A stretch of DNA of 64,000 bases from Escherichia coli (lineage in GTDB: Bacteria; Pseudomonadota; Gammaproteobacteria; Enterobacterales; Enterobacteriaceae). Shown in pieces: positions 2,997-5,900 of the stretch (position 1 is the first letter of the stretch; each line of letters begins with the position of its first letter). The stretch lies in assembly GCF_965641715.1 (NCBI RefSeq), contig NZ_OZ282453.1; one strand, given 5' to 3'. The position numbers were made by a program.

Positions 2997-5900
2997 TCAG
3001 CCCGCTTGCCTGCTCCAGCCGCGCGCAAATGTCTTTAAAGTTAAAAGTATGCGGCCCCATCAATACCGGAATTGCGTGTGCGGCAGCTTCCAGCGGATTA
3101 TGCCCACCACGTTCAACCAGTGAACCGCCAACAAAGGCGAGATCGGCAATGCCGTACAGTAACATCAACTCGCCCATCGTATCGCCAACCACAACCTGCG
3201 TGCTGGTGGAGGGGACTTCCCCTGAAGAGCGTGTGATATAGCTTAGTCCAGCCTGGCGGACAAGGTTAATCGCATCCGGGAAGCGTTCTGGATGACGGGG
3301 TACCAGGATGAGCAATAAATTCGGGAATTGCTGTAACAATGCCTGATGTGCGGCGATCACCACACTCTCTTCGCCTTCGTGAGTGCTGGTGGCAATCCAT
3401 ACCGGGCGGTGTGGTGCCCACTGGCGGCGCAGCGTCACGGCTTTAGCAGCCAACTGCGGCGTTACAGAAATATCGAATTTCAGGCTACCGGTAACGGTTA
3501 CCTGGTTATTTTTTGCGCCCAGCGCCACAAAACGTGCACCATCTTCTTCATTTTGCGCAGCAATCAGCGTAATACGACGCAGCAAGCGGCGGACGAATTT
3601 ACCCAGTTTGGCATAACCTGCGGCCGAGCGGGCAGAGAGTCGCGCGTTAGCGATCACCAGCGGAATTTTACGTTTATGTAGCGCCGCAATCAGGTTAGGC
3701 CATAGTTCGGTTTCCATAATCAACACCAGTTTAGGGTCGACTTTATTCAGGAAACGGTTGAGTGCATCGGGCAGATCATACGGCAGATAAACGTGCTGAA
3801 CATCCTTCCCGAAAGCCGATTGTACGCGCTCCGAACCGGTTGGCGTCATGGTTGTTACGGTAATCGGTAAATCAGGATAACGATGACGCAGCGCGCGCAC
3901 CAACGGGATCGCCGCCAGAGTTTCACCGACGGAGACGGAGTGCAGCATAATGCCGCCTGGTTTTAGCGGATGGCGGTAAAAACCGTAACGTTCACCCCAG
4001 CGTTTTCGATAGGCCGGAGCCTTACGTCCGCGCACCCAGAGCCGTATCCAGATCAGCGGCTGAATAAGGTAGAGAAGGGCGGTGTAAAGCAATTCGAGCA
4101 TAGTAAATAGCTGACTTATGGATGTGCTGGGGATTCTATGTATTTAGCTGTGGCTTTACCATTACTTTTCCCGTTTTTGACTTAAATAGCAATTTACCCG
4201 CCAATTCTTGCTGAACATCTATACTTTTTTTGTATTTTTATGCGATTCATTGATTTCTGCTGTACGTGCAGGAAGGAATCGCAGAGCAACAGTGAAAGAA
4301 TATGGTTGCTAATGATTTTATTTGATTGATTTCTTTATTGAAAATCAACAATGTGCTTAAAAATCATTCGGGTCGGATTGCCGCGAAAGAAGTGATACAC
4401 TAGCGCGTCAATATCAGTGCGGTATCAGTATTCAGGTAGCTGTTGAGCCTGGGGCGGTAGCGTGCTTTTTCTGCTTCACCTTAATCGGATAATCTCAACA
4501 AAAAGAGTTACTTGTGGATAAGCCATTTCGAAGAATTTTGCTCATTAAGATGCGTTTTCATGGGGATATGTTATTAACTACTCCCGTCATTAGTTCGCTG
4601 AAAAAAAATTACCCTGACGCAAAAATCGATGTGCTGCTTTATCAGGACACCATCCCGATCCTGTCTGAAAATCCAGAGATTAACGCGCTCTACGGCATAA
4701 AAAATAAAAAAGCAAAAGCCTCAGAAAAAATTGCCAACTTTTTTCATCTCATCAAGGTATTACGTGCCAATAAGTATGACCTTATCGTCAATCTTACCGA
4801 TCAATGGATGGTTGCTATACTGGTTCGCTTATTAAATGCCCGTGTGAAAATTTCCCAGGATTATCATCATCGGCAGTCTGCTTTTTGGCGTAAAAGTTTC
4901 ACCCATTTGGTGCCGTTGCAGGGTGGAAATGTGGTGGAAAGTAACTTATCCGTGCTGACACCATTGGGACTTGATTCGTTGGTGAAGCAGACAACCATGA
5001 GTTACCCGCCTGCAAGCTGGAAACGTATGCGTCGCGAACTTGATCACGCTGGTGTTGGACAAAATTATGTGGTTATCCAACCTACGGCGCGGCAAATCTT
5101 CAAATGCTGGGACAACGCCAAGTTTTCCGCTGTGATTGATGCCTTACATGCTCGTGGTTATGAAGTCGTTCTGACGTCCGGCCCAGATAAAGACGATCTG
5201 GCCTGCGTCAATGAAATTGCGCAGGGATGCCAGACGCCACCAGTAACGGCGCTGGCTGGAAAGGTGACCTTCCCGGAACTTGGTGCGTTAATCGATCATG
5301 CGCAGCTGTTTATTGGCGTTGATTCCGCACCGGCGCATATTGCCGCTGCAGTTAATACGCCGCTGATATCGCTGTTTGGTGCGACAGACCATATTTTCTG
5401 GCGTCCCTGGTCAAATAACATGATTCAATTCTGGGCGGGAGATTACCGGGAAATGCCAACGCGCGATCAGCGTGACCGAAATGAGATGTATCTTTCGGTT
5501 ATTCCGGCGGCAGATGTCATTGCTGCTGTCGATAAATTACTGCCCTCCTCCACGACAGGTACGTCGTTATGATCGTTGCTTTTTGTTTATATAAATATTT
5601 TCCCTTTGGCGGTTTGCAGCGCGATTTTATGCGTATTGCTCAGACAGTCGCCGCCCGAGGTCATCATGTTCGGGTTTATACCCAGTCGTGGGAAGGCGAA
5701 TGCCCTGATGTATTTGAACTGATCAAAGTGCCGGTTAAATCGCATACCAATCACGGGCGCAATGCGGAGTATTTTGCCTGGGTGCAAAAACATTTACGCG
5801 AACATCCCGTCGATAAAGTCGTTGGATTCAACAAAATGCCGGGGCTGGACGTTTATTATGCCGCTGATGTTTGTTATGCCGAGAAAGTAGCGCAGGAAAA

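What the first reader, a model, noticed from the sequence alone, without database searches (positions are those of the whole stretch)
4453..4464. ops element upstream of waaQ
The exact 12-mer GGCGGTAGCGTG lies in the leader of the waaQ operon. This is the operon polarity suppressor recognised by RfaH, which confers antitermination on long LPS operons. The adhesin operon upstream region (38086-38630) showed no ops motif on inspection.
Basis: partly seen in the sequence, partly recalled or inferred. Interest (0 to 1): 0.3.

Follow-up and report, generated by a model that had tools for sequence, protein, structure and literature searches.

The report
Known RfaH ops site, waaQ leader
This is the textbook RfaH loading signal (ops, inside a JUMPstart element) in the leader of the E. 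coli LPS-core operon waaQ; it is real, correctly interpreted, almost universally conserved in E. coli and already well described, so it is ordinary.

Summary
The exact 12-mer GGCGGTAGCGTG is at 4453-4464 on the + strand. About 0.008 such matches are expected per window, and 0 of 100 shuffles produced one. It forms the 3' end of a full-length Rfam JUMPstart match (4426-4464, 55.2 bits, gathering score 35), the only Rfam hit in the 64 kb. The window is an E. coli chromosome. The motif lies in the waaA/waaQ divergent intergenic region, 50 nt upstream of the conserved GTG start of waaQ (4514) and in the same orientation as the 9.1-kb, AT-rich waaQ-to-waaL operon. Alignment to K-12, where RefSeq annotates the 73-nt sRNA rirA (b4760), puts the shared rirA/waaQ mRNA 5' end at window 4408. 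The 30-nt JUMPstart-ops core is essentially identical in 5,401 of 5,426 complete E. coli genomes. The same motif sits 39-87 nt upstream of WaaQ homologues in many enterobacterial genera. Published ChIP-seq shows RfaH loading at the rfa leader. The other two GGCGGTAG 8-mers in the window are intragenic and expected by chance. Verdict: observation confirmed, interpretation supported, already known, low interest.

The parts
4393..4401 (+). Candidate extended -10 promoter element TGaTACACT for the waaQ/rirA transcript
   Evidence: It ends 7 nt upstream of the position homologous to the K-12 rirA 5' end. TGnTAYAMT is present 15-60 nt upstream of the motif in 18 of 21 waaQ leaders from many genera, against 1 of 99 other JUMPstart loci. 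The consensus promoter scan did not report it. Its role as a promoter is inferred.
4408..4479 (+). Leader RNA segment homologous to the K-12 sRNA RirA (b4760); 4408 is the inferred waaQ transcription start
   Evidence: The K-12 RefSeq ncRNA rirA at 3808166..3808238 aligns here with 5 substitutions and one T deleted. [quoted passage not shown] The 72-nt stretch is at least 90% identical in 5,424 of 5,426 E. coli genomes.
4426..4464 (+). JUMPstart element (Rfam RF01707), full length
   Evidence: cmscan gave 55.2 bits against a gathering score of 35, E 6.4e-10, model positions 1-38 of 38. It is the only Rfam hit in the window.
4433..4451 (+). JUMPstart hairpin: arms CAGGT (4433-4437) and GCCTG (4447-4451), 9-nt loop
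   Evidence: This is the structure line of the Rfam match. Across 120 motif instances the two pairs not fixed by my search pattern covary (TA 78, AT 13, GT 8, GC 4, CG 3). They are 89% paired against 56% in shuffles.
4453..4464 (+). ops element GGCGGTAGCGTG (the finding); predicted pause with the RNA 3' end at U11 = 4463
   Evidence: Exact match. It is identical to the ops12 oligonucleotide of PMC5995543, and every base shown there to matter (C3, G4, G5, T6, A7, G8, T11, G12) is present. It is intact in 5,401 of 5,426 E. coli genomes.
4466..4470 (+). T-run directly after ops, typical of waaQ-type leaders
   Evidence: A run of at least 4 T within 9 nt after ops occurs in 13 of 21 waaQ leaders against 11 of 99 other JUMPstart loci (the sequences are related, so the p-value is indicative only). 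Its function is not established.
4503..4516 (+). Weak Shine-Dalgarno-like AAGAG (4503-4507) and conserved GTG start codon of waaQ (4514-4516)
   Evidence: It is conserved across 17 leaders. tblastn homology to WaaQ starts at residue 1 in most genera. PGAP uses this start.
4514..13647 (+). The regulated operon: waaQ 4514-5572, waaG 5569-6693, waaP 6686-7483, waaO 7499-8515, a GT8 gene 8532-9527, waaY 9537-10229, a GT8 gene (alpha-1,2-galactosyltransferase) 10255-11280, a GT2 gene 11365-12348, and the O-antigen ligase waaL 12394-13647
   Evidence: ORFs come, annotation of matching genomes, and Pfam. The genes are tightly packed on one strand. GC is 32-39% in the distal half against 50% for the window.
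13656..13691 (.). Perfect 15-bp palindromic hairpin between the convergent waaL and waaC genes; a likely bidirectional terminator marking the operon end
   Evidence: The terminator-like scan reported it on the - strand. A role in releasing RfaH-modified RNA polymerase is inferred.
2824..4101 (-). waaA (Kdo transferase), the divergently transcribed neighbour that delimits the 412-bp intergenic region

Best explanation
The 12-mer is the operon polarity suppressor (ops) of the E. coli waaQ (rfaQ) LPS-core operon, embedded in a JUMPstart element. The steps below are marked as shown here, taken from the literature, or inferred. (1) Transcription starts near 4408, probably from an extended -10 promoter (TGaTACACT, 4393-4401); this is inferred by homology to K-12 rirA and by conservation. 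(2) After about 56 nt, RNA polymerase reaches ops and pauses with U11 (4463) at the RNA 3' end. The sequence fits the consensus pause (G at -10, pyrimidine at -1, G at +1). The pause was shown in the literature for this exact sequence and is not measured here. (3) In the paused complex the exposed non-template strand forms a small hairpin (C3:G8) that presents G4, G5, T6 and A7 to the N-terminal domain of RfaH. RfaH is thereby released from autoinhibition and its C-terminal domain refolds from alpha-hairpin to beta-barrel (literature). (4) RfaH stays on the polymerase through the roughly 9.1-kb operon. It excludes NusG, suppresses pausing, and couples the polymerase to the ribosome via S10, which matters for a leader with only a weak Shine-Dalgarno sequence and a GTG start. 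In this way it blocks Rho-dependent, H-NS-aided termination in the AT-rich distal genes. The mechanism is from the literature; the AT-richness, weak SD and GTG start are shown here. (5) Transcription probably ends at the hairpin after waaL (inferred). (6) The first ~72 nt of the transcript correspond to the sRNA RirA. [quoted passage not shown]
For: The 12-mer is exact and not expected by chance. A full-length JUMPstart covariance-model match scores far above the gathering score. The motif is in the sense orientation, 50 nt upstream of waaQ, in the waaA/waaQ intergenic region of an E. coli chromosome. The K-12 rirA annotation aligns so that ops falls at +46 to +57 of the transcript, and reviews state that RirA and waaQ mRNA share their 5' end. 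The 30-nt core is at least 99% identical, once per genome, in 5,401 of 5,426 complete E. coli genomes. The same motif lies 39-87 nt upstream of WaaQ homologues (51-82% identity) in Escherichia albertii, Citrobacter, Kluyvera, Kosakonia, Pluralibacter, Shimwellia, Cedecea, Pseudescherichia, Silvania, Pectobacterium and Symbiopectobacterium. Other instances precede RfbB-, Wza-, GalF-, WecA-, KpsM-, Wzx- and WbaP-like genes, the classical JUMPstart/RfaH contexts. The distal operon is 32-39% GC, as described for H-NS-bound RfaH targets. The ops12 sequence and the roles of its bases are in PMC5995543. RfaH ChIP-seq signal on rfa downstream of its single leader ops in CFT073 is in PMC9765446. waa is described as an RfaH-regulated operon in MG1655 in PMC5449661.
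Against: Nothing found here contradicts it, but there are limits. No transcription start, pause, RfaH occupancy or rfaH dependence was measured for this strain; all functional evidence is transferred from K-12 and CFT073 by near-identity. The primary RirA paper (PMC5087721) was not available, so the shared 5' end rests on the RefSeq annotation and two reviews. The consensus promoter scan did not report the proposed promoter and instead found a weak site at 4338-4367; that site is also upstream of ops, so the conclusion does not change. rfaH itself is not in the window. The cross-species loci were selected by the motif, so the conservation of the motif in them is by construction; only its position relative to waaQ and the flanking features are independent.
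Confidence: 0.95

Rival explanations
1. The element works mainly at the RNA level. Either the JUMPstart hairpin in the nascent leader is the functional unit, or the ~72-nt RirA-like RNA acting as an RfaH decoy is. Under this reading the DNA ops is not the primary signal.
For: Rfam files JUMPstart as a cis-regulatory RNA with a 5-bp hairpin, and that hairpin covaries across 120 instances. [quoted passage not shown]
Against: [quoted passage not shown] Covariation in a hairpin cannot tell RNA from single-stranded non-template DNA. RNAalifold found no further covarying structure in 20 waaQ leaders (1 of 15 pairs compensatory, covariation term -0.66). The single-sequence fold of 4408-4479 is no better than shuffles (z = -0.66). 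The RirA effect is reported on overexpression and adds to the DNA mechanism rather than replacing it.
Confidence: 0.03
2. The leader is an RfaH-independent attenuator. A long imperfect hairpin (4416-4466) followed by the T-run (4466-4470) terminates most transcripts, giving the short RNA, and the resemblance to ops is secondary.
For: The minimum-free-energy fold pairs 4416-4421 with 4461-4466 and is followed by UUUU-C-U. The K-12 RirA 3' end maps about 13 nt after this stem. A T-run after ops is enriched in waaQ leaders, 13 of 21 against 11 of 99.
Against: The terminator scan found none in 4050-4600. The fold is not better than shuffles. The outer stem has two G-U pairs and shows no covariation support. 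The RNA end lies further from the stem than the usual 7-9 nt. The model does not explain the exact conservation of the 12-mer across unrelated polysaccharide operons.
Confidence: 0.015
3. The match is a chance occurrence of a G-rich 12-mer with no function.
For: The 8-mer core alone occurs three times in the window, which is compatible with chance.
Against: 0.0077 exact 12-mers are expected per window and 0 of 100 shuffles had one. The JUMPstart match is full length. The core is invariant in 5,401 of 5,426 genomes even though the surrounding intergenic region diverges strongly between K-12 and this strain. Its placement before waaQ recurs across genera.
Confidence: 0.005

Closest known systems
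ops element of the E. coli K-12 and CFT073 rfaQ/waaQ leader (RfaH-dependent antitermination; Bailey, Hughes and Koronakis 1997; Artsimovitch and Landick; Zuber et al. 2018)
   Same: It is the orthologous element. The 12-mer and the 48 nt around it are identical to K-12. It has the same flanking genes, the same orientation, and essentially the same distance to waaQ (the ops-to-GTG spacer is 50 nt here and differs from K-12 by one or two small indels).
   Different: There are five substitutions and one fewer T in the RirA-equivalent segment outside the JUMPstart core. The upstream half of the intergenic region differs strongly from K-12. The downstream operon appears to be of a different core type (waaO, GT8, waaY, GT8, GT2, waaL in the operon) from K-12.
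JUMPstart element (Hobbs and Reeves 1994; Rfam RF01707)
   Same: The match is full length at 55.2 bits. It has two GGTAGC repeats (4435-4440 and 4456-4461), a 5-bp hairpin and a 3' ops, and it lies upstream of a polysaccharide gene cluster.
   Different: The hairpin arms are CAGGT/GCCTG (A-T at pair 2). This minority variant occurs in 12 of 120 instances and is typical of waaQ leaders; rfb, wza and kps leaders mostly have CTGGT/GCCAG or TTGGT/GCCAA. There is one extra loop base relative to the model.
RirA sRNA (RfaH-interacting RNA, b4760; Klein et al. 2016)
   Same: 4408-4479 is homologous over the full length (67 of 73 positions identical) and contains JUMPstart and ops.
   Different: Expression as a discrete RNA in this strain is unknown, and the segment is one nucleotide shorter.
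Other NusG-paralogue systems (Bacteroides UpxY with capsule operon leaders; LoaP) and phage antitermination (lambda N/nut, Q/qut)
   Same: The logic is the same: a leader-encoded signal loads a processivity factor onto elongating polymerase to express a long operon (PMC11685472 listed; general knowledge).
   Different: Those systems use different signals and factors. RfaH reads the non-template DNA strand at a pause, whereas N reads nut RNA. UpxY targets are operon-specific and the factor is encoded in cis, whereas RfaH is encoded elsewhere and serves several operons.

Membership tests
ops element (RfaH recruitment site) | A 12-nt sequence matching GGCGGTAGnnTG, with the recruitment-critical bases C3, G4, G5, T6, A7 and G8 | tested here: met
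   The exact GGCGGTAGCGTG is at 4453-4464. It is identical to the ops12 of PMC5995543, where G4C, G5A, A7T and G8C abolish recruitment and C3G and T6A reduce it.
ops element (RfaH recruitment site) | Pause-inducing context: TG at positions 11-12 and G ten nucleotides upstream of the pause 3' end | tested here: met
   T11 and G12 are at 4463-4464 and G2 is at 4454. This is read directly from the sequence, with the requirement as described. The pause itself was not measured.
ops element (RfaH recruitment site) | Lies on the non-template strand of a transcribed 5' leader, downstream of the start site and upstream of the first gene | tested here: met
   It has the same orientation as waaQ and is 50 nt upstream of GTG 4514. 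The K-12 rirA 5' end maps to 4408, and the reviews describe a shared 5' end. This is met by homology; it was not mapped in this strain.
ops element (RfaH recruitment site) | Heads a long, AT-rich cell-envelope operon prone to polarity | tested here: met
   Nine co-oriented LPS-core genes span 4514-13647, and the distal half is 32-39% GC.
ops element (RfaH recruitment site) | RfaH occupies the transcription unit, and distal expression depends on rfaH | not testable with these tools
   This is shown for the orthologous locus in CFT073 by ChIP-seq (PMC9765446) and stated for MG1655 (PMC5449661).
ops element (RfaH recruitment site) | The genome encodes RfaH | not tested
   rfaH is not within the 64-kb window. 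By general knowledge E. coli carries it.
JUMPstart (Rfam RF01707) | Covariance-model score at or above the curated gathering score over the full model | tested here: met
   55.2 bits against 35, model positions 1-38 of 38.
JUMPstart (Rfam RF01707) | A 5-bp hairpin formed around the first GGTAGC | tested here: met
   CAGGT (4433-4437) pairs with GCCTG (4447-4451), all five as standard pairs. Family-wide covariation is seen at the free positions.
JUMPstart (Rfam RF01707) | Located just upstream of a polysaccharide biosynthesis gene cluster | tested here: met
   The waaQ operon follows it. The same holds for sampled relatives.
RirA sRNA | Sequence homology to K-12 b4760 over its full length, at the 5' end of the waaQ transcript | tested here: met
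   Alignment A1 shows 5 substitutions and 1 indel over 73 nt.
RirA sRNA | Accumulates as a discrete ~73-nt RNA that binds RfaH | not testable with these tools
   This is reported for K-12 only. The primary paper was not available.

The most novel reading that the evidence does not exclude
The features specific to waaQ-type leaders are the conserved extended -10-like box, the A-T variant of the JUMPstart hairpin, and the T-run directly after ops. Together they could form a dedicated, RfaH-sensitive attenuator. Under this model polymerases that fail to load RfaH at ops stop within about 15 nt and release RirA, which in turn titrates RfaH. That would be a built-in feedback loop setting LPS-core output, conserved across Enterobacteriaceae. 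It would extend the published RirA model, which says only that RirA shares the waaQ 5' end and inhibits RfaH when overexpressed, rather than define a new kind of system.
Probability: 0.12. Interest if true: 0.3.

Novelty: already known. Interest (0 to 1): 0.06.

Why it matters
It adds nothing to current biology. The ops/JUMPstart element of the waaQ leader has been known since the 1990s, its recognition by RfaH is understood at the structural level, and the leader RNA is annotated as rirA in K-12. For the scan its value is as a positive control. A reader working from raw sequence located a 12-nt regulatory element and assigned it correctly, and the tools (Rfam, comparative genomics, annotation transfer, literature) agree on the answer. 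It also helps annotation, because PGAP records of most strains leave this leader unannotated ('none' under the match).

Tried and rejected
(1) Other ops candidates. The two further GGCGGTAG 8-mers are intragenic. One (30509-30516, - strand) is on the sense strand near the 3' end of the 560-aa ORF 30387..32069 (-), which I take to be lldP. It lacks TG at positions 11-12. The other (40976-40983, + strand) is antisense within mtlD, so it lies on the template strand. In CFT073, 34 such intragenic sites bind no RfaH. I rejected both as chance. (2) GGCGGTAGNNTG with one mismatch gave 9 sites against 3.35 expected. All except the real one have a substitution in the recruitment-critical core, or lie in coding sequence, or both, so I did not pursue them. 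(3) Extra RNA structure in the leader. RNAalifold on 20 waaQ leaders gave a structure without meaningful covariation, and the single-sequence fold is not better than shuffles. I found no support for a conserved structure beyond the Rfam hairpin. (4) The consensus promoter scan did not find the promoter implied by the K-12 5' end. It reported only a weak TTGAAA-18-AATCAT at 4338-4367, which I list but do not rely on. (5) The primary RirA paper (PMC5087721) is not held, so I used the RefSeq annotation and reviews instead. (6) A NET-seq paper (PMC4457086) mentions ops only in general terms and gives no waaQ-specific pause data. (7) I did not run an unbiased, WaaQ-anchored cross-species scan.
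Full report
OBSERVATION. The window reads ...GAGCCTGGGGCGGTAGCGTGCTTTTTCTGC... 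and the 12-mer GGCGGTAGCGTG occupies 4453-4464 on the + strand, exactly as reported. It is the only exact copy on either strand. None of 100 dinucleotide-preserving shuffles contained one, and base composition predicts 0.0077 copies per window. The 8-mer core alone is not remarkable: 3 copies against 1.39 expected. The 12-mer with up to two mismatches is not remarkable either: 10 against 5.8 expected. The signal lies in the exact 12-mer together with its context.

CONTEXT. The window is an E. coli chromosome. A 1.6-kb stretch around the motif is 100% identical to many complete genomes and is present in 5,424 of 5,426. The motif lies in the 412-bp intergenic region between waaA (2824-4101, - strand) and waaQ/rfaQ (GTG 4514-5572, + strand). 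waaQ is followed on the same strand, with overlapping or closely spaced reading frames, by eight genes. These are waaG, waaP, waaO, a GT8 gene, waaY, a GT8 alpha-1,2-galactosyltransferase gene, a GT2 gene and the O-antigen ligase waaL, which ends at 13647. From my own knowledge of core types, this gene order is that of the R1 core. The 100%-identical leader of strain EC1515 is followed by a GT25 gene instead of the GT2 gene, which shows that the same leader serves different core types. The distal half of the operon is 32-39% GC in a 50% GC window. A perfect 15-bp palindromic hairpin (13656-13691) separates waaL from the convergent waaC.

WHAT THE ELEMENT IS. Scanning all 64 kb against Rfam gave one hit. 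JUMPstart (RF01707) matches 4426-4464 on the + strand at 55.2 bits against a gathering score of 35, covering the whole model, and the 12-mer forms its 3' end. The element has the two GGTAGC repeats (4435-4440 and 4456-4461) and the 5-bp hairpin CAGGT/GCCTG (4433-4437 and 4447-4451). The 12-mer is letter for letter the 'ops12' oligonucleotide used to solve the RfaH:ops complex. In that work G4C, G5A, A7T and G8C abolished RfaH recruitment, C3G and T6A reduced it, and G12C removed the pause at U11 (PMC5995543). All of these bases are present here.

IS IT TRANSCRIBED? RefSeq K-12 MG1655 annotates the ncRNA rirA (b4760, 3808166..3808238, 73 nt) in the waaQ leader. Aligned to the window, its 5' end falls on 4408 and its 3' end on 4479. 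There are five substitutions and one fewer T, and the 48 nt around the JUMPstart are identical. Two reviews from the group that described RirA state that it shares its 5' end and transcription start with waaQ mRNA and contains the ops and JUMPstart sites (PMC5736990; PMC8745692). The primary paper was not available. The ops is therefore at +46 to +57 of the transcript.

Two further points support this placement. A sequence resembling an extended -10 element, TGaTACACT (4393-4401), ends 7 nt upstream of 4408. It was not part of my search pattern, yet it is conserved in 18 of 21 waaQ leaders from many genera against 1 of 99 other JUMPstart loci. The simple promoter scan did not report it. It found only a weak site at 4338-4367, which is also upstream of ops, and nothing between 4465 and 4513. 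The refutation condition is therefore not met, with the caveat that nothing was mapped in this strain.

CONSERVATION. The 72-nt RirA-equivalent is present at 90% identity or more in 5,424 of 5,426 complete E. coli genomes. A 30-nt query covering GGTAGC through ops can only hit if at least 28 consecutive bases are identical. It matched 5,401 of 5,426 genomes at 99% or more, once per genome. This holds even though the upstream half of the same intergenic region is barely alignable between this strain and K-12.

I then scanned one genome per species for GGTAGC-N(11,12)-GGCGGTAGCGTG. In 21 of them a WaaQ homologue (51-82% identity) starts 39-87 nt downstream on the same strand. The genera are Escherichia albertii, Citrobacter, Kluyvera, Kosakonia, Pluralibacter, Shimwellia, Cedecea, Pseudescherichia, Silvania, Pectobacterium and Symbiopectobacterium. 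The other loci precede genes whose products match dTDP-glucose dehydratase-type epimerases, Wza, nucleotidyltransferases (GalF/GalU-like), WecA-type GT4 transferases, ABC-2 permeases (KpsM-like), Wzx-type flippases and WbaP-type sugar transferases. These are the classical JUMPstart/RfaH contexts.

Because the loci were chosen by the motif, its conservation in them is by construction. Three things are independent of the pattern: its placement relative to waaQ, the flanking promoter-like box, and the covariation in the hairpin at positions the pattern left free. For the second pair the counts are TA 78, AT 13, GT 8, GC 4 and CG 3, giving 89% paired against 56% in shuffles.

MECHANISM. The best-supported account is the established one. 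Polymerase initiating near 4408 pauses at ops with U11 (4463) at the RNA 3' end. The exposed non-template strand folds into a small hairpin and is read by the RfaH N-terminal domain. RfaH is activated and stays on the polymerase to the end of the operon, where it excludes NusG, reduces pausing and couples the polymerase to the ribosome. This overcomes Rho-dependent termination and H-NS-stimulated pausing in the AT-rich distal genes (PMC5995543, PMC5449661, PMC9765446).

In CFT073, ChIP-seq found RfaH on the rfa unit downstream of its single leader ops. All eight genuine ops sites were in leaders, and 34 intragenic ops-like sites bound no RfaH. The features visible in the window fit this account. 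The ops is in the sense orientation in the leader. The Shine-Dalgarno sequence is weak (AAGAG, 4503-4507) and the GTG start is conserved. The operon is long and AT-rich. A terminator-like hairpin lies at its end. The leader RNA itself corresponds to RirA, which in K-12 binds RfaH in an ops-dependent way when overexpressed.

RIVALS. A purely RNA-level function is not supported beyond the known hairpin. RNAalifold on 20 leaders found one compensatory pair out of 15 and a covariation term of -0.66. The fold of 4408-4479 is no better than shuffles (z = -0.66).

An attenuator reading is suggested by two observations: a long imperfect hairpin (4416-4466) followed by a T-run, and enrichment of T-runs after ops in waaQ leaders (13 of 21 against 11 of 99). 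It lacks a scan hit, a significant fold and covariation. I keep it only as the speculative 'novel case'. Chance is excluded.

OTHER ops-LIKE SITES AND THE ADHESIN REMARK. The 8-mer at 30509-30516 (- strand) lies on the sense strand near the 3' end of the 560-aa ORF 30387..32069 (-), which I take to be lldP, and lacks the TG at positions 11-12. The one at 40976-40983 (+ strand) is antisense within mtlD. Both are as expected by chance. The adhesin is a 1,629-aa YadA-like protein (32469-37358, - strand) preceded by a SadB/YajI-family lipoprotein gene (37402-38085, - strand).

VERDICT. The element is a member of the ops and JUMPstart families by every sequence-level criterion tested. The functional criteria (RfaH occupancy, rfaH dependence) are documented for the orthologous, core-identical element in K-12 and CFT073 but cannot be tested here. 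It is already known, and interest is low.

Noticed in passing
window 4514-4552; L002 5085-5135 (K-12): The K-12 RefSeq annotation starts waaQ at an ATG that corresponds to window 4550, 12 codons downstream of the GTG at 4514 that PGAP uses. The GTG, the AAGAG before it, and the encoded N-terminus (V-D/E-K-P-F...) are conserved across 17 leaders, and tblastn homology starts at residue 1 in most genera. The K-12 start therefore looks too short.
   Followed up: partly
window 4465-4479 and loci L004-L122: A T-run directly after ops is characteristic of waaQ-type leaders (13 of 21) and rare after ops in rfb, wza or kps-type leaders (11 of 99). It coincides with the region where K-12 RirA ends. The sequences are related, so the statistics are only indicative.
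   Followed up: partly
window 4102-4370 versus K-12 (alignment A1): The promoter-distal middle of the waaA-waaQ intergenic region (roughly 4190-4350) is almost unalignable between this strain and K-12, while both ends are near-identical. The leader and JUMPstart are kept while the sequence between the divergent promoters has been replaced or has diverged.
   Followed up: no
window 7400-13760: The distal, strain-variable part of the operon has no better match than 99.3% identity in 5,426 complete E. coli genomes, and it is covered at 80% or more in only 1,825 of them. Gene order and Pfam content (GT8, kinase, GT8, GT2, ligase) suggest an R1-type core. Strain EC1515, with a 100%-identical leader, has a GT25 gene in place of the GT2 gene.
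   Followed up: partly
window 13656-13691: A perfect 15-bp palindrome with a 6-nt loop lies between the convergent waaL and waaC genes. It is a likely bidirectional terminator.
   Followed up: no
window 32469-38085 (- strand): There is a large YadA-like trimeric autotransporter adhesin gene (1,629 aa) preceded by a SadB/YajI-family lipoprotein gene, next to the mtl operon. A 6-kb query from here matched a median of 10 places per genome, presumably through repeats. No ops lies upstream.
   Followed up: partly
loci L039, L040, L051, L058, L059, L061, L078, L081, L089, L102, L105: The motif scan also hit records labelled Mycobacterium, Arthrobacter, Polyangia, Paraburkholderia, Treponema, Erysipelotrichia, Thomasclavelia and others. 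Some are GC-rich and lack the hairpin arms, so they are probably chance matches. Others are short, low-coverage contigs or MAG contigs, which suggests enterobacterial contamination or mis-binning.
   Followed up: no
window, whole: GGCGGTAGNNTG with up to one mismatch occurs 9 times against 3.35 expected (only 1 of 100 shuffles reached 9). All except the true ops carry a mismatch in or next to the core. The excess probably reflects Gly-Gly codon usage (GGC-GGT) rather than function.
   Followed up: no
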